IMG/VR virus record: IMGVR_UViG_3300008262_000025
Coordinates: 25,558-89,557 of that record
Origin: a virus
Strand: one strand, 5' to 3'
DNA: 64,000 bases
Notes under the pieces: model-generated
What the model saw: the letters and a program-made list of their open reading frames with translations, nothing else
The model's database searches: none
What the model was told of the DNA's origin: nothing
In this document: positions 47,245 to 54,309 of the stretch, piece after piece
How positions within the stretch are numbered: position 1 is the first letter of the stretch
Layout of the letters: every line of letters starts with the position of its first letter
Program-made: the position numbers and the translations under genes

Positions 47245-47353
47245 AAGTTAGTGTTTTTTGCCTATTGATCTTACCAACTGATCTAATTAGATTAATCTAA
47301 TGAAGGACTTGAACCTCCGACCTACAGGGTATGTTTAATTTTGTAACTAACTT
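47245..47353 (-). ncRNA. Circularly permuted tRNA mimic (YrlA/Y-RNA-like)
   Basis: AAGTTAGT stem, TACAA.., CCTGT, AGGTC, T-arm GGAGG TTCAAGT CCTTC, closed acceptor ATTAGA TTAA TCTAAT, D-arm GATC AGTTGGTAA GATC, ATAGG, ACTAACTT. Confidence 0.85.
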
Positions 47354-47357
47354 GTTG

Positions 47358-47425
47358 TGAAAATGATTGGAATCGAACCAACGTCATACTTTAGAAGTAC
47401 TACTCTACCACTGAGCTACATTTCC
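47358..47425 (-). tRNA. tRNA-like RNA with shrunken anticodon arm
   Basis: GGAAATG/CATTTTC; GCTC AGTGGTA GAGT; GTACT TCTAA AGTAT; GTTGG TTCGATT CCAAT; 68 nt. Confidence 0.75.
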
Positions 47426-47427
47426 AT

Positions 47428-47523
47428 AAATCACTTATATAATATGCTTAACCGTTTAGCTAAAAACCCAATGGGTTTTATAGGATTCGAACCTATATGA
47501 GTATTATGTTTTGTAAGTGACTT
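47428..47523 (-). ncRNA. Circularly permuted tRNA mimic (YrlA/Y-RNA-like)
   Basis: AAGTCACTTA stem, CAAAAC, ATAATA, T-arm ATAGG TTCGAAT CCTAT, closed acceptor AAAACCC ATT GGGTTTT, D-arm GCT AAACGGTTA AGC, TATTAT, TAAGTGATTT. Confidence 0.85.
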
Positions 47524-47530
47524 TGTTTAT

Positions 47531-48067
47531 TTATTTAATTTTTAAAGTTTTCCATATCTGAGAACAATAACCTATTTGATAATGACAATCAATTATAGCA
47601 TTATGTGTGTTTTCAGGTACAGGATACTCTTTCTTTATAGTACGATTAAAACTAACTAAAGTTCTAACACATCTTTCATTATAGTATTTCCAGGGTATAG
47701 GTTTTTTCAATTTATTATAGGCATCATTTAATAAGCCTAAATCAAATCTTGCACTATTACCCCAAACTTCATAATTAGCATCATTAAAGAATTTAGAAAA
47801 GTCTTCTAAAGCTTTCTCAATTGGAACAGCTTCCTTTGTAAACTCTTTTCTTGCTTCATCAGATTGTTGCATCCACCATAATACAGTAGAAGCATCCACT
47901 GCAAGACCTATGTCTAAACAACTTTGTAAATCTATTATTGTGTAAAATTCATCGCCTGTCTTACCAGTACTAATATCAAATTTTACAGCACCAATACTAA
48001 TAATTGCTGAATTTGAAGTATTTCCCATACTTTCAATATCAACCATAATGTGTTTTAACTTAGCCAT
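47531..48067 (-). CDS. DEDD 3'-5' exoribonuclease (Rv2179c/RNase AS-like)
   Basis: MVDIESMG, SIGAVKF, TVLWW..Q, WGNSARFD, HNAIID. Confidence 0.88.
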   Translation of the reverse strand: MAKLKHIMVDIESMGNTSNSAIISIGAVKFDISTGKTGDEFYTIIDLQSCLDIGLAVDASTVLWWMQQSDEARKEFTKEAVPIEKALEDFSKFFNDANYEVWGNSARFDLGLLNDAYNKLKKPIPWKYYNERCVRTLVSFNRTIKKEYPVPENTHNAIIDCHYQIGYCSQIWKTLKIK

Positions 48068-48082
48068 TTTATTTTAATTTAA

Positions 48083-48616
48083 TTACCAATTTAAAGGGTT
48101 AATATCATAACGCCATAGTTTATATTTTTCAATAATACTAATTAACTTTTGTGCATAATTAGGATCAGTTGCATAGCCCGCAGATTTTAACCCATAAGCC
48201 CAAGATTCATAATTAAATTTTGATAAACTTCTAAGATGATTATATCTAGGTTTAGTCAATAAATTAGAATGATCTTGCCATGATTGATCTACATCAGAAT
48301 AGAATTTAAATCTATCATTTGGTTTATCATCAGCATAAACTACGTATTTACCTTCACCTTTCCATTTAATACCAAAGTGATTATTAGCATTTTTAGCCAA
48401 ATAAGATTTACCAAATTGACTCTCTAACATTCCTTGTGATAGCTTAATAGCTATTGGTATGTTGTACTTTTTTGATTCTCTAATTGCAACATTAAGATGA
48501 TCATCAATGTATTTCTGAACATCATTAGGAAGTTCTACTTCTAACGATGAGAGATAAGTTGAAAATCCAGCTGTACAAAAGAATAATAACGAACATAGTA
48601 ATAATATCCTTTTCAT
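48083..48616 (-). CDS. GH73 glucosaminidase (FlgJ-like) with signal peptide
   Basis: SQGMLESQFG, NNHFGIK, GYATDPNYA.KL. Confidence 0.92.
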   Translation of the reverse strand: MKRILLLCSLLFFCTAGFSTYLSSLEVELPNDVQKYIDDHLNVAIRESKKYNIPIAIKLSQGMLESQFGKSYLAKNANNHFGIKWKGEGKYVVYADDKPNDRFKFYSDVDQSWQDHSNLLTKPRYNHLRSLSKFNYESWAYGLKSAGYATDPNYAQKLISIIEKYKLWRYDINPLNW

Positions 48617-48634
48617 GATTTTTAGAATTAAGGT

Positions 48635-49234
48635 TTAAAAATTAAATTTATCATATAACACTTGTATAAACTCAATAGGTAAATGAATATTCTTTATACC
48701 TACTGCTTTCTTAAAAAACGGAGCAATGTTTACAGGATAATAACCAGCTAAACCACAACCTATTTGAGTTACTAAAAACTCCTTATCAGGGTTTTCTTTA
48801 GCAAAATCAATAAAGTCATTTACATAAGATTCTATCTCATGTAAAGGTAAATTCTTAGTTATTAACTTATTCATTGTAGGTATAGCATAAGTTTGACCTT
48901 GTAAACCAACAGATTTACCATACTTAGCACCCCAATTCATTGCTGTTTTAGCAGCACCTAATCCATGTCTACCTGCAATATTAGAACCAAATACAAATAC
49001 TTCATTATCATTTAAAGAAGTAATATTATTAGGAGTTACTTTTATATTTTCATATAAATAGATAAGTTCCTTATATTCTTCAATTTCAGTTTCAAGTACA
49101 GTTAATTGATATTCTAATAATTCATTAAGAATTTTATCAGGATTGCGACGATAATACTCTAAATTATGTTCAGCATTTTCTAAACGTTTAAGAGTTATCT
49201 TATACTGTAGTTCATTCTCCAATACTTCCATCAT
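48635..49234 (-). CDS. A1S_2505-like / macro-like phage protein
   Basis: VFVFGSNIAGRHGLGAA, GQTYAIPT, VTQIGCGLAG. Confidence 0.75.
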   Translation of the reverse strand: MMEVLENELQYKITLKRLENAEHNLEYYRRNPDKILNELLEYQLTVLETEIEEYKELIYLYENIKVTPNNITSLNDNEVFVFGSNIAGRHGLGAAKTAMNWGAKYGKSVGLQGQTYAIPTMNKLITKNLPLHEIESYVNDFIDFAKENPDKEFLVTQIGCGLAGYYPVNIAPFFKKAVGIKNIHLPIEFIQVLYDKFNF

Positions 49235-49706
49235 TGTTTAACATAGAATTAATAGTATTCTCCATTTCTGAAGTATTAATTAAATTATAAGGTTCCATGT
49301 AAACTCTAGCTAAACCAAATTTAAGTTTAATTTGACTATAAGTAAAGTTTGGTACGGTTTCTTTAAGCTTAGTAAATTCTTTATCAAGATAATTAATAAC
49401 GTTTAAATCATGAATTGCAAGACCATAATGACCTTTTTCTAAATGATCTTTCCATTTATTTTGAAATGTTTGTGAATCTAATAATTCTTGAGGAAATCTA
49501 TCACCTTCCCAAAGGACAGGTTTTTCTAAACACTCAGTTATTTTTTCACAGAGCCATTCTAATCCATCTAAAGATTCTGCACTTATTGTAACAGGTTTTT
49601 CTATATAACCATCAGGTAATCCTTCTGAATTATAATAAACCTCACGAACTGAATAATAAAGTTCATTATCATGTTCGGTAACTAAAACTCTAAAATTAAA
49701 AGTCAT
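49212..49706 (-). CDS. hypothetical two-domain phage protein
   Basis: FNFRV..EVYY N-domain, QIKLKFGLARVY C-domain. Confidence 0.7.
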   Translation of the reverse strand: MTFNFRVLVTEHDNELYYSVREVYYNSEGLPDGYIEKPVTISAESLDGLEWLCEKITECLEKPVLWEGDRFPQELLDSQTFQNKWKDHLEKGHYGLAIHDLNVINYLDKEFTKLKETVPNFTYSQIKLKFGLARVYMEPYNLINTSEMENTINSMLNNDGSIGE

Positions 49707-49951
49707 TTTGAAATAGTTGGAATTGTTTGATCTGTTTTATGTTTATCATTACTTGTTGACATAACAGCTCCATTGCAGTTACAAAAGAATCTACGTTGTC
49801 CGTATGCCCAAAAAGTATAAACTTTACAACCTTCTGCTTCAAATAATAATTTTACATCAAAATTTGAATTAGTACTTTTTATATGACCAATTGAAGGATC
49901 ATCACAACTAATAAATAATATTAATACTAGTAAAAATGTAAAAATTTTCAT
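49703..49951 (-). CDS. Small lipoprotein
   Basis: Lipobox LFISC; LLFEAEGCKVY.F. Confidence 0.7.
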   Translation of the reverse strand: MKIFTFLLVLILFISCDDPSIGHIKSTNSNFDVKLLFEAEGCKVYTFWAYGQRRFFCNCNGAVMSTSNDKHKTDQTIPTISK

Positions 49952-53627: not shown

Positions 53628-53687
53628 AAGTTAGTTCCTTTTTATTCACTTTCAATAATAATAAATTTGATAAATTGTAACTAACTT
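53628..53687 (-). ncRNA. TTACAA-stem element without tRNA domain
   Basis: AAGTTAGTT ACAA..AACTAACTT, same stem as 47245-47353. Confidence 0.7.
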
Positions 53688-53691
53688 GTTG

Positions 53692-53764
53692 AGGGGAATC
53701 TCGGAATCGAACCGAAATAAAAGAATTATAAGTAACTAAATAAGTTACTACCTGACATTCCCCT
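53692..53764 (-). ncRNA. tRNA-like RNA: acceptor and T-arm kept, D/anticodon arms replaced
   Basis: AGGGGAAT/ATTCCCCT; AGTAACT TATTT AGTTACT-TATAA; TTCGG TTCGATT CCGAG. Confidence 0.7.
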
Positions 53765-53769
53765 TGTAT

Positions 53770-53818
53770 AAATCACTATAATATTAAGCAGATATTGTTA
53801 AATCTTTGTAAGTGACTT
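53770..53818 (-). ncRNA. TTACAA-stem element without tRNA domain
   Basis: AAGTCACT TACAAA..AGTGATTT, same stem as 47428-47523. Confidence 0.7.
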
Positions 53819-53826
53819 TTTTAACT

Positions 53827-54006
53827 TTAAGTTGTCCAACCTTTCATTGGACTTCTAAATTTCTGTTGTTCTTCACCAGTTAATTTATAACGATAAAGAT
53901 ACTTTTTACCTTGAATTCTTTCAAGTTTTGACTTTTGTTTCTTTGCAAACTTCCTTGTTCCTTGTCCGTTACCAGGAAGATTGTCAATTTTTTCGTAACT
54001 GTTCAT
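53827..54006 (-). CDS. 59-aa basic peptide between two RNA triads (not in track)
   Basis: MNSYEKIDNLPGNGQGTRKFAKKQKSKLERIQGKKYLYRYKLTGEEQQKFRSPMKGWTT. Confidence 0.6.
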   Translation of the reverse strand: MNSYEKIDNLPGNGQGTRKFAKKQKSKLERIQGKKYLYRYKLTGEEQQKFRSPMKGWTT

Positions 54007-54026
54007 AACAAGATAATTTAAAATTT

Positions 54027-54119
54027 AAGACAGTTAATGTGGGAATTGAACCCACTACCGTTTGATTAAAATTCAAATGCTCTACCAAATGAGCTAAATT
54101 AAATTTTTGTAACTGTCTT
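54027..54119 (-). ncRNA. tRNA-Lys(UUU)-like body whose acceptor end is replaced by a TTACAA stem
   Basis: AAGACAGTTA/TAACTGTCTT closing GCTC ATTTGGTA GAGC, TTTGA ATTTTAA TCAAA, GTGGG TTCAATT CCCAC. Confidence 0.8.
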
Positions 54120-54124
54120 GTTTG

Positions 54125-54240
54125 TGGCGAGGGAAGGAATCGAACCTCCGTTAAAAATAATCCTCAATTTATTTGAATTTATGAAGTTATTGTAACTAGC
54201 TTTAAGAAGAACTAGTTTAAGCCAACATTTCAACCTCGCC
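54125..54240 (-). ncRNA. tRNA-like RNA with internal TTACAA stem in place of the anticodon arm
   Basis: GGCGAGG/CCTCGCC-A; AACTAGTT..AGCTAGTT-ACAATAACTTCATAAA; GGAGG TTCGATT CCTTC. Confidence 0.75.
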
Positions 54241-54247
54241 TTAAAAG

Positions 54248-54309
54248 AAGACACTTAATTTATTTATGAACATTGATATAATTAATTTATAAATGTTTGT
54301 AAGTGTCTT
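54248..54309 (-). ncRNA. TTACAA-stem element without tRNA domain
   Basis: AAGACACTTA CAAACATT..AATGTT..TAAGTGTCTT. Confidence 0.7.

What the first reader, a model, noticed from the sequence alone, without database searches (positions are those of the whole stretch)
47245..54309. Three repeated stem / tRNA-like / stem triads, with payload swapping between duplicates
Seen: 54309-54027, 53818-53628 and 47523-47245 each consist of a TTACAA-stem element, a central RNA with a normal open acceptor stem and T-arm, and a second TTACAA-stem element, spaced only 2-7 nt apart. The 53.7-kb and 47.4-kb triads share outer stems and junctions (AAGTCACTTACAAA, AGTGATTTAT, CAACAAGTTAGTTACAA) but have unrelated interiors. 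Inference: the central tRNA-like unit is a punctuation mark cut by host RNase P / 3' processing to release the flanking RNAs, and interiors are exchanged by recombination at the conserved stems.
Basis: partly seen in the sequence, partly recalled or inferred. Interest (0 to 1): 0.75.

Follow-up and report, generated by a model that had tools for sequence, protein, structure and literature searches.

The report
Phage Y-RNA-like handles carrying tRNA mimics
The repeated stem elements are small phage RNAs built from one conserved helix "handle" that carries swappable tRNA-like bodies, and they sit beside a gene for a Ro60-like RNA-binding protein, so they are most likely this phage family's version of the Ro60 / Y RNA particle.

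Summary
All three triads lie on the minus strand at the stated coordinates, with units 2-7 nt apart. There is an eighth motif copy at 46882-46835.

Each "stem element" is a cassette. An 8-9 bp closing helix (5' arm WWGWYACUU, 3' arm AAGURWCWW) is followed by ACAA and encloses a variable payload. In the window the payloads are two circularly permuted tRNA-like bodies, one tRNA-Lys-like body and four AT-rich inserts. The centre of triad 1 is the unpermuted form, with the same helix as an internal hairpin.

The 611-aa gene just downstream (44971-46806) is Ro60/TROVE-like by whole-protein fold, a PHROG profile and language-model features. Pfam does not see it, and its N-domain alone is non-specific.

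In 54 related phage stretches, 51 carry cassettes and 41 have one within 300 nt of this gene. In three complete genomes the motif occurs only in that neighbourhood. One relative's cassette scores on Rfam YrlA; the window's own do not.

Best reading: a new variant of the Ro60 / Y RNA (YrlA-type) system in crAss-like phages. The tRNA-punctuation idea is plausible but untested, as no RNA data were found. Variable payloads behind conserved stems are confirmed.

The scan had noted this idea before on this same stretch (e1-6131895).

The parts
54248..54309 (-). Cassette T1.c1: handle helix AAGACACUU/AAGUGUCUU plus ACAA, with an AT-rich 44-nt interior
   Evidence: (fold z -3.77)
54122..54240 (-). Element B: normal-order tRNA-like RNA. 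It has a 7-bp acceptor stem, a UUGAAAUGUUGG D-like region, the handle as an internal hairpin ending in GCUAGUUACAA, a long variable region and a canonical T arm
   Evidence: tmRNA model 18.6 bits, E 2e-4, acceptor and T arm only; homologues in 8 related loci listed: L266, L271, L283, L289/L305, L291, L298/L308, L300
54027..54119 (-). Cassette T1.c3: handle AAGACAGUU/AACUGUCUU enclosing a tRNA-Lys(UUU)-like body (54032-54103). The acceptor 3' strand runs straight into the 3' arm
   Evidence: (z -4.55)
53770..53818 (-). Cassette T2.c1: handle AAGUCACU/AGUGAUUU with a short AT-rich interior
53692..53764 (-). Centre of triad 2: tRNA-like, with acceptor GGGGAAU/AUUCCCC, a T arm and one internal hairpin; no D arm. 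Not called as a tRNA
   Evidence: (z -3.12)
53628..53687 (-). Cassette T2.c3: handle AAGUUAGUU/AACUAACUU with an AT-rich interior
53566..53594 (-). Terminator-like hairpin plus U run, 34 nt after triad 2
   Evidence: the only such site in 46700-55300; shuffles give a mean of 1.8
47428..47523 (-). Cassette T3.c1: handle AAGUCACUU/AAGUGAUUU enclosing a permuted tRNA-like body. Order is T arm, acceptor hairpin AAAACCC-AUU-GGGUUUU, D arm. There is no anticodon arm
   Evidence: z -3.94; aligns with 20 relatives, which keep an anticodon arm
47357..47425 (-). tRNA with anticodon CUA (amber-suppressor type), between two cassettes
47245..47353 (-). Cassette T3.c3: handle AAGUUAGU/ACUAACUU enclosing a permuted tRNA-like body. 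Order is CCUGU, AGGUC, T arm, acceptor hairpin AUUAGAU-UA-AUCUAAU, D arm, AUAGG
   Evidence: aligns with 6 relatives, one of which scores on Rfam YrlA
46835..46882 (-). Eighth cassette: handle AAGAUACUU/UAGUAUUUU, 28 nt upstream of the Ro60-like gene
   Evidence: (fold not significant, z -1.51)
44971..46806 (-). 611-aa Ro60/TROVE-like protein: helical repeat N-domain plus a vWA domain with MIDAS motif VDDSGSM
   Evidence: Against:
54750..55190 (-). 146-aa helical protein of no known family, conserved just upstream of the Ro60-like gene in relatives
   Evidence: (41 of 53 loci, same strand, median gap 119 nt)
47531..48067 (-). Rv2179c-like 3'-5' exoribonuclease gene ending 7 nt before triad 3. 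The link to the system is uncertain
   Evidence: PF16473, E 4.6e-55; homologue near the Ro60-like gene in only 1 of 53 loci

Best explanation
The elements are a family of modular small RNAs of crAss-like phages, built like bacterial Y RNAs of the YrlA type.

Each RNA has a conserved 'handle': a helix of about 9 bp, sequence-conserved on both strands, directly followed by ACAA(U/A)A. I infer that the handle is the docking site for the phage's own Ro60-like protein, encoded next to the RNAs.

The handle carries a variable payload that the particle would present or sequester. Payloads are circularly permuted tRNA bodies (T arm, closed acceptor hairpin, D arm, with or without an anticodon arm), whole tRNA bodies, or short AT-rich hairpins.

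The RNAs are probably made as parts of longer transcripts, since each triad starts 7-8 nt after an ORF's stop codon. They would be separated by RNase P and 3' processing at the tRNA or tRNA-like unit between them.

Shown here: the anatomy, the covariation, the conservation, and the genomic linkage to the Ro60-like gene. Inferred: transcription, processing, binding to the Ro60-like protein, and any downstream role such as tRNA mimicry against host tRNA-directed enzymes or tethering a nuclease.
For: 1. Anatomy. The two window cassettes fold as handle, T arm, acceptor hairpin, D arm. This is the YrlA order described by Chen et al. 2014 (PMC4201824, passages read).

2. Family match. Rfam YrlA aligns to a relative's cassette, L310:13601-13712, through the T arm, AS hairpin and D arm at 45.3 bits (E 7.4e-7 in 65 kb; E 2e-9 in a 181-nt search). 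The window's 47353 cassette aligns with that class.

3. Covariation, tested without circularity. Of 399 forward NNNACTTACAA sites, 173 have AAGT plus the reverse complement of NNN 20-320 nt downstream. Shuffled triplets give 48.6 (maximum 67); a different triplet gives 21 (maximum 36). On the reverse strand the count is 0 of 48. RNAalifold on 21 cassettes finds compensatory changes in 15 of 19 pairs.

4. Partner protein.
- Foldseek's top 11 PDB hits are all Ro60/Rsr/TROVE, including Thermus phage phiLo Ro60, at E 3e-6 to 4.5e-4.
- VIA-align gives Z 12.9 with 383-398 residues aligned, against at most 11.7 with about 190 residues for vWA-only hits.
- The protein hits PHROG phrog_850 at E 6.1e-6 over residues 79-426. 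The Pfam-TROVE-positive protein of phage CcrColossus hits the same PHROG at E 5e-73.
- 16 of 30 named ESM Atlas hits are TROVE plus vWA_Ro60 clusters.

5. Linkage.
- 51 of 54 stretches with this gene carry cassettes; 41 have one within 300 nt and 47 within 1000 nt.
- In three 99-100% complete genomes, 8 of 8, 9 of 9 and 8 of 9 copies of GNNACTTACAA lie on the gene's strand. By my comparison of their coordinates with the gene's coordinates, all lie within about 8-13 kb of the gene and none elsewhere.
- A handle-first scan of all IMG/VR found 9 stretches in 7 contigs. Six of these contigs were already known to carry the gene.
- Of 35 window ORFs, only this gene (53 of 53) and the 146-aa ORF (41 of 53) are conserved in the relatives.

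6. Element B carries the same helix as an internal hairpin. So the handle is a module of its own, not merely a leader-trailer pairing.

7. Precedent. Phage Ro60 genes with Y-RNA-like genes beside them are known (PMC12135203, passages; PMC4201824).
Against: - No RNA or binding data exist. No RNA run holds the stretch.
- The handle motif (GWYACUUACAA) is not the GNCGAAN0-1G / CGAA motif of known Y RNAs.
- The window's own cassettes get no Rfam YrlA hit, even in a 311-nt search at E up to 10.
- The Ro60-like call rests on the whole-protein fold and one weak profile hit. Pfam TROVE is not found in the contig, in 29 family members or in 10 remote members. hhalign against a true TROVE protein aligns only 51 vWA columns at probability 32%. 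The N-domain alone gives only generic HEAT/ARM matches, with Z at most 6.7 and no Foldseek hit at E <= 0.001.
- About 10 of 50 normal-order cassettes end in CCA directly before the 3' arm (my count from its rows). There the handle looks like a removable leader-trailer helix.
- Cassettes also lie up to about 13 kb from the gene, inside tRNA arrays.
- There is no excess of G-U over A-C mismatches in the stems (15 against 21; 13 against 14). RNA-level pairing is therefore argued from context, not from that signature.
Confidence: 0.62

Rival explanations
1. The handle is a processing or stability device of phage tRNA and tRNA-like genes. It would be a leader-trailer helix that guides or delays RNase P and 3' trimming or shields ends from exonucleases, with no tie to the Ro60-like protein. 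On this view the gene linkage reflects only a shared small-RNA island.
For: In the 50 distinct normal-order cassettes, the tRNA body sits 8-21 nt after the 5' arm in 49 (6 nt in the window's own) and 0-9 nt before the 3' arm in 48. About 10 end in CCA right at the arm. Cassettes lie among ordinary tRNA genes, up to about 13 kb from the gene.
Against: Only 54 of 404 forward ARAGORN tRNA calls lie in cassettes, and 123 of 249 cassettes hold no tRNA part. Element B has the same helix as an internal hairpin, where it cannot be a leader-trailer pair. The helix is conserved in sequence on both strands, which a mere clamp does not need. In three complete genomes the motif is confined to the gene's neighbourhood. 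The exact handle pattern was found in 7 contigs, 6 of which carry the gene; the seventh is a 10-kb fragment.
Confidence: 0.17
2. The permuted cassettes are real decoding tRNAs made in two pieces. RNase P and 3' processing would open the acceptor hairpin, and the handle helix would hold the halves together, as in two-piece tmRNA. The Ro60-like protein would be at most a chaperone.
For: 13 of 54 permuted cassettes with a 7-nt acceptor hairpin encode N-CCA right after the acceptor 3' strand, against about 0.4 expected from base composition (my estimate). Many keep a full anticodon arm with a 7-nt loop. M. smegmatis YrlA is cut by RNase P and receives CCA in vivo (PMC4201824).
Against: The window's two copies have no CCA, linkers of only 2-3 nt and no anticodon loop, so they cannot decode. 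38 of the 54 lack CC(A). No RtcB gene was found in the 5 phage records searched, though none is needed for a two-piece form. No charging or ribosome data exist.
Confidence: 0.1
3. The cassettes are DNA-level mobile or recombining units. Short inverted repeats would flank a cargo that is exchanged by site-specific or homologous recombination, with the RNA features being incidental.
For: Close strains differ by whole cassettes or interiors. The same arm carries different cargo at the syntenic site. Triads 2 and 3 share arms and junctions but not interiors.
Against: The repeat is only 9 bp. No recombinase was found among the ORFs scanned. There is a strict strand bias with the genes (399 forward against 48 reverse). 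The interiors hold conserved, covarying RNA helices. Turnover of cassettes is equally expected for the RNA-module reading.
Confidence: 0.06

Closest known systems
Bacterial and phage YrlA-type Y RNAs with Ro60/Rsr (Chen et al. 2014, PMC4201824; Rfam RF02553)
   Same: The RNAs lie on the same strand and close to a Ro60-like gene, several per genome. The 5' and 3' ends pair into a stem that carries a short conserved motif near the 5' end. The payload is a tRNA mimic in the order T arm, closed acceptor-like hairpin, D arm. Some have 7-bp acceptor stems, as in M. smegmatis YrlA, which RNase P cuts. One relative's cassette scores 45.3 bits on RF02553.
   Different: The motif is GWYACUUACAA, not GNCGAAN0-1G. 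[quoted passage not shown] The score is below Rfam's gathering cut-off of 69, and the window's copies do not score at all. The payloads go well beyond YrlA: whole tRNA bodies, permuted tRNAs with full anticodon arms and encoded CCA, three or more permutation topologies, and non-tRNA inserts. There are up to about 10 cassettes per locus. The protein is not recognised by Pfam TROVE.
Thermus phage phiLo Ro60 with Yrl1 and Yrl2 (PMC12135203; PDB 9KOP, 9L5Y)
   Same: A phage-encoded Ro60 with Y-RNA-like genes beside the gene. 9kop and 9l5y are among the best structural matches of the 611-aa protein.
   Different: phiLo Ro60 is a recognisable TROVE protein of about 460 residues, and its Yrls were found through the CGAA motif (passages only). 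The protein here has 611 aa, about 13% identity in the structural alignment, a different RNA motif and many more RNAs.
TROVE protein gp96 of Bacteroides phage crAss001, an early gene (PMC8375218, PMC10136315; passages read)
   Same: [quoted passage not shown] Directly downstream lies an unannotated 905-nt gap. That gap holds all 4 minus-strand copies of TTACTTCAA in the genome. It also holds two tRNA-like units with an internal hairpin followed by that motif, the layout of Element B.
   Different: gp96 matches the 611-aa family's profile only at the MIDAS region (E 0.0023). The motif differs (UUACUUCAA against CUUACAA). ACTTACAA is not clustered in crAss001. The crAss001 folds are single-sequence and not significant. 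In the passages I read, neither paper mentions RNAs next to gp96.
Circularly permuted tRNA genes of red and green algae and of Thermofilum (PMC3978253, PMC3218864; abstracts in search listings only) and two-piece tmRNA (recalled)
   Same: [quoted passage not shown]
   Different: Those systems use a bulge-helix-bulge motif, the splicing endonuclease and a circular intermediate. No such motif is seen here, no RtcB was found in 5 phage records, and the host is bacterial. Two-piece tmRNA is the nearer bacterial analogy, but it is recalled, not tested.

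Membership tests
YrlA / Y RNA-like (Rfam RF02553) | Score at or above the family's gathering cut-off (69 bits) | tested here: not met
   Window: no YrlA hit on the cassettes at E up to 10. Best relative: 45.3 bits, E 7.4e-7.
YrlA / Y RNA-like (Rfam RF02553) | tRNA-like domain in the order T arm, acceptor-like stem-loop, D arm, closed by a stem formed by the 5' and 3' ends | tested here: met
   (54 of 67 distinct permuted or T-arm-only cassettes have a T arm followed by a 7-nt acceptor hairpin).
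YrlA / Y RNA-like (Rfam RF02553) | GNCGAAN0-1G motif near the 5' end (Chen et al. 2014) | tested here: not met
   The conserved 5' motif is G-W-Y-A-C-U-U-A-C-A-A; no CGAA is present.
YrlA / Y RNA-like (Rfam RF02553) | Encoded within 4 kb of a Ro60 orthologue, on the same strand | tested here: met
   Window: cassettes lie 28 nt to about 7.5 kb upstream on the same strand. 47 of 54 stretches have one within 1000 nt. This holds if the 611-aa protein counts as Ro60-like.
YrlA / Y RNA-like (Rfam RF02553) | Bound by Ro60/Rsr in vivo | not testable with these tools
   Needs immunoprecipitation or gel shift.
Ro60 / Rsr (TROVE plus vWA) | Pfam TROVE (PF05731) match | tested here: not met
   0 of 29 members; 0 of 10 remote members.
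Ro60 / Rsr (TROVE plus vWA) | Sequence-profile link to a family that holds true TROVE proteins | tested here: met
   phrog_850 at E 6.1e-6 over residues 79-426. The CcrColossus TROVE protein hits the same PHROG at E 5e-73. The hit is weak (26 bits).
Ro60 / Rsr (TROVE plus vWA) | C-terminal vWA domain with MIDAS motif DxSxS | tested here: met
   VDDSGSM is invariant in 29 sequences. vWA matches give Z about 10-11.7. hhalign aligns the MIDAS block with a true TROVE protein.
Ro60 / Rsr (TROVE plus vWA) | N-terminal HEAT-repeat ring of the TROVE type | tested here: inconclusive
   The whole model aligns to Ro60 chains over 383-402 residues at Z 11.2-12.9 and gives Foldseek E 3e-6. The N-domain alone gives only generic helical-repeat matches.
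Circularly permuted tRNA genes (algal and archaeal type) | Bulge-helix-bulge motif at the paired ends, processed through a circular intermediate | tested here: not met
   The closing helix is a plain 8-9 bp stem followed by unpaired A-rich strands. Circular RNA could not be tested.

The most novel reading that the evidence does not exclude
These phages use one Ro60-like protein plus a library of handle-tagged tRNA bodies as a programmable tRNA display or decoy system.

Some permuted cassettes have a 7-bp acceptor, an encoded CCA and a full anticodon arm. They would be opened by RNase P into two-piece, chargeable tRNAs, a gene form not described for bacterial or phage tRNAs in the papers my searches found.

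Close relatives re-aim one such cassette by changing only the anticodon (GUU, UUU, GAU, GUC, UCA). They would do so to replace or shield the tRNAs that host anticodon nucleases attack, or to serve stop-codon recoding.
Probability: 0.15. Interest if true: 0.9.

Novelty: new variant of a known kind. Interest (0 to 1): 0.7.

Why it matters
Ro60 / Y RNA particles are conserved from bacteria to humans, yet their bacterial and viral roles are poorly understood.

This is a large, unannotated branch of that system. At least 1088 homologues of the protein were found in metagenomes, and none by tblastn in 50,697 GenBank phage records. It belongs to crAss-like phages.

Its RNA side is unusually legible: one conserved handle and many interchangeable payloads, most of them tRNA bodies in several permutations. 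That makes the 'Y RNA as a modular tether' idea directly testable.

It also raises the possibility of two-piece tRNAs in phages.

The cultured phage crAss001 appears to carry a cousin of the system next to its early TROVE gene. Experiments are therefore feasible.

Tried and rejected
- **Promoter reading of TTACAA.** Rejected. The 5' arm covaries with a distant 3' arm, the motif sits inside Element B, and sigma-70-like sites are not enriched (52 found against 59.4 expected).
- **Exonuclease-based relatives (L001-L033).** 31 of 33 lack the motif, so they gave no help.
- **Two 15-mer scans of IMG/VR.** These returned mostly chance hits. Of the 264 loci held then, only L243 had several stemmed copies.
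- **Single-protein scan for the 611-aa gene.** Found nothing. The alignment-based scan worked.
- **GenBank phage searches.** blastn of the region against phages gave only short unrelated hits. tblastn of the 611-aa protein against phages gave no match.
- **PDB sequence searches.** No Ro60 hit.
- **RNA evidence.** No RNA holder is listed. Runs X19 and X20 are probably DNA, and X21 laid nothing.
- **Complex of the Ro60-like protein with the 146-aa protein.** No verdict: score 0.30 against a mark of 0.32.
- **146-aa protein.** No family in Pfam or PHROGs, and nothing useful in the ESM Atlas.
- **RtcB.** None in the 5 phage records searched.
- **TAG or TGA recoding in the contig.** No sign: reading TAG as sense raises ORF length from 23,048 to 23,602 aa.
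- **G-U against A-C mismatch test.** No signal for RNA-level pairing.
- **Literature.** Searches listed no paper on Y RNAs of crAss-like phages or on permuted tRNA genes in phages of bacteria. These searches cover only the held library. Supplements were closed, including the phage list in the supplementary tables of Chen et al. 2014.

Full report
**What is there**

The window is part of an 89.5-kb IMG/VR virus contig, about 53% complete, with 27% G+C. An earlier follow-up in this scan called it a freshwater crAss-like phage (e1-6131888); I did not test that.

All features of the finding lie on the minus strand, the strand of the genes. Direct reading confirms the three triads at the stated coordinates, with 2-7 nt between units.

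The motif AAGNNNNTTACAA occurs 10 times in the window against 2.09 expected. The tighter AAGNNNSTTACAA occurs 8 times in the contig, all on the reverse strand.

**Anatomy of a cassette**

In seven of the eight copies, AAGNNNNUU is the 5' arm of an 8-9 bp helix whose 3' arm (AASUNNCUU) lies 48-109 nt downstream. The interiors differ.
- 47523-47428 holds a T arm, a closed acceptor hairpin (AAAACCC-AUU-GGGUUUU) and a D arm.
- 47353-47245 holds CCUGU, AGGUC, a T arm, an acceptor hairpin, a D arm and AUAGG. This is a tRNA circularly permuted and opened where the anticodon loop would be.
- 54119-54027 holds a normal-order tRNA-Lys(UUU)-like body whose acceptor 3' strand runs into the 3' arm.
- 54309-54248, 53818-53770, 53687-53628 and 46882-46835 hold AT-rich inserts.

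The centre of triad 3 is a real tRNA with anticodon CUA.

The centre of triad 1 ('Element B') has a 7-bp acceptor stem and a canonical T arm. Between them sits a hairpin whose 3' strand is AAGCUAGUU followed by ACAA. This is the same module, closed by a loop instead of by the RNA's ends. Element B and the permuted cassettes are therefore circular permutations of one design.

**Is the helix real?**

I fetched 53 viral stretches that encode a relative of the neighbouring 611-aa protein and added the window's contig. In these 54 sequences:
- N6-S-TTACAA occurs 639 times forward and 216 times reverse.
- 249 forward copies have a partner arm with at least 8 of 9 Watson-Crick pairs within 300 nt, and 97 are perfect.
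- No reverse copy has a perfect partner.
- Three control motifs give 5 of 390, 1 of 262 and 0 of 212 perfect partners.

A second test does not select on complementarity. Of 399 forward NNNACTTACAA sites (48 reverse), 173 have AAGT followed by the reverse complement of NNN 20-320 nt downstream. Shuffled triplets give 48.6 (maximum 67 in 1000 shuffles). A deliberately different triplet gives 21 (maximum 36). The reverse strand gives 0 of 48.

The consensus is WWGWYACUU-ACAA(U/A)A for the 5' arm and AAGURWCWW for the 3' arm, conserved on both strands.

RNAalifold on 21 permuted cassettes recovers the handle, the T arm and the acceptor hairpin, with compensatory changes in 15 of 19 pairs. A second class of 7, which includes the window's 47353 cassette, gives 9 of 18.

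One thing does not support RNA-level pairing. Near-perfect stems show no excess of G-U over A-C mismatches.

**Payloads across the family**

Of the 249 cassettes, 57 hold an ARAGORN tRNA, 47 a T arm followed by a D arm (permuted), 22 a T arm only, and 123 something else. Only 54 of 404 forward tRNA calls lie in cassettes, so the handle is not a general feature of these phages' tRNA genes.

Permuted cassettes come in at least three topologies: the break falls in the variable region, between the D arm and the anticodon arm, or the anticodon arm is absent.

Of 67 distinct permuted or T-arm-only cassettes, 54 have a T arm followed by a 7-nt acceptor hairpin. Thirteen of those encode N-CCA right after the acceptor 3' strand. 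From base composition I estimate well under one by chance.

Orthologous cassettes in five relatives differ almost only in the anticodon triplet.

In the 50 distinct normal-order cassettes, the tRNA body ends 0-9 nt before the 3' arm in 48. About ten end in CCA at the arm.

**The neighbour**

The ORF 44971-46806 (611 aa) starts 28 nt after the eighth cassette. Pfam sees nothing in it. The evidence that it is Ro60-like is as follows.
- An AlphaFold2 model built from 29 sequences (pLDDT 81) has Ro60/Rsr/TROVE chains as its 11 best Foldseek matches (E 3e-6 to 4.5e-4). These include D. radiodurans Rsr, Xenopus and human Ro60, and Thermus phage phiLo Ro60.
- VIA-align gives Z 12.9 with 383-398 aligned residues spanning residues 17-605. 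vWA-only matches give Z at most 11.7 with about 190 residues.
- The protein hits PHROG phrog_850 ('RNA-binding protein') at E 6.1e-6 over residues 79-426. The TROVE protein of phage CcrColossus, which I located with Pfam TROVE, hits the same PHROG at E 5e-73 over its full length.
- 16 of 30 named ESM Atlas neighbours are TROVE plus vWA_Ro60 clusters.

Against this:
- No Pfam TROVE hit in 29 members or in 10 remote members.
- No Ro60 hit in PDB sequence searches.
- hhalign against the CcrColossus protein aligns only the MIDAS block.
- The N-domain folded alone matches only generic helical repeats.

I put the Ro60-like assignment at about 0.8.

**Linkage**

- 51 of 54 stretches carry at least one cassette. 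41 have one within 300 nt of the gene and 47 within 1000 nt.
- In three 99-100% complete genomes of 168-183 kb, GNNACTTACAA occurs 8, 9 and 9 times. All but one copy are on the gene's strand. By my comparison with the gene's coordinates, all lie within about 8-13 kb of the gene.
- A scan of all IMG/VR for one exact handle with an 85-115 nt gap found 9 stretches in 7 contigs. Six were already known to carry the gene. The seventh is a 10-kb fragment with no hit in the 7 kb held.
- Of 35 ORFs between 37.5 and 56.6 kb of the window, only the 611-aa gene (53 of 53 loci) and a 146-aa ORF at 54750-55190 (41 of 53, median 119 nt upstream of the gene) are conserved in the relatives.
- In the relative G001 the cassettes form one 800-nt block between these two genes. 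In the window, about 6 kb of small ORFs split the block.

**Comparison with what is known**

Chen et al. 2014 (PMC4201824; passages read) describe YrlA RNAs.
- The stem carries a 5' GNCGAAN0-1G motif.
- The tRNA-like domain runs T arm, acceptor-like stem-loop, D arm.
- The RNAs are encoded within 4 kb of Ro60 on the same strand.
- They were found in 254 bacterial species and 22 phages.
- M. smegmatis YrlA is cut by RNase P and receives CCA.

The phiLo study (PMC12135203; passages read) shows a phage Ro60 binding two Y-like RNAs encoded beside it.

The layout here is the same, and Rfam YrlA aligns to one relative's cassette at 45.3 bits. But that score is below the gathering cut-off, the window's copies do not score, and the motif differs. 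So it works like a YrlA system but is not a member of the Rfam family as it stands.

crAss001 is reported to have an early TROVE gene (PMC8375218 and PMC10136315; passages read). Downstream of that gene (gp96) I found an unannotated 905-nt gap. It holds all four minus-strand copies of TTACTTCAA in the genome and two tRNA-like units laid out like Element B. The folds there are single-sequence and not significant, so this is a lead only.

Variable interiors behind conserved stems are confirmed between relatives, between the window's own duplicates, and between close strains. Recombination at the stems is a fair inference, not a result.

tRNA punctuation fits the spacing and fits the position of each triad 7-8 nt after a stop codon. 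A terminator-like hairpin follows triad 2. No RNA reads were available.

**Verdict**

The feature is real, strongly non-random and conserved. The best explanation is a new variant of the Ro60 / Y RNA system with a novel handle and an unusually wide, exchangeable set of tRNA-derived payloads (confidence 0.62). A Ro60-independent processing device is the main rival.

Noticed in passing
MH675552 (crAss001) 95965-96869; locus L332 1466-2370: There is an unannotated 905-nt gap right after TROVE gene gp96. It holds 4 of the 4 minus-strand TTACTTCAA copies of the genome, a 144-nt tRNA-like hit (46.6 bits), and a second tRNA-like unit with an internal hairpin plus the motif.
   Followed up: partly
L273:8747-8859, L277:12466-12584, L284:12333-12448, L293:12484-12594, L304:12520-12633, L276:5949-6042: Orthologous permuted tRNA cassettes differ almost only in the anticodon triplet (GTT, TTT, GAT, GTC, TCA). 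One relative (L276) lacks the anticodon arm altogether.
   Followed up: partly
window 54750-55190 (-): A 146-aa helical protein of no known family is conserved on the same strand just upstream of the Ro60-like gene in 41 of 53 related loci. It is the only other conserved neighbour.
   Followed up: partly
window 47357-47425 (-): The tRNA has anticodon CUA (amber-suppressor type), yet the 89.5 kb held shows no sign of TAG recoding. TAG ends 12 of 57 long ORFs on the minus strand (the strand of the genes), and reading it as sense adds about 2% ORF length.
   Followed up: partly
L268:10001-11080: The Ro60-like gene of this 25% G+C relative has one in-frame stop under table 11. This may be stop-codon recoding or a break.
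   Followed up: no
L266 about 9440-9690 (L243 reverse strand 3010-3250): A 240-nt stretch richer in G+C and of unknown nature lies between two cassettes in relative G001. No Rfam hit at E up to 1.
   Followed up: no
window 47531-48067 (-): An Rv2179c-like 3'-5' exoribonuclease gene ends 7 nt before triad 3. A homologue lies near the Ro60-like gene in only 1 of 53 relatives, so the adjacency may be local.
   Followed up: partly
L292:14-86 (+): A sub-threshold match to the RAGATH-1 hammerhead ribozyme (40.5 bits, gathering cut-off 56.3, E 0.0029) lies about 10 kb upstream of the Ro60-like gene in a complete 183-kb relative.
   Followed up: no
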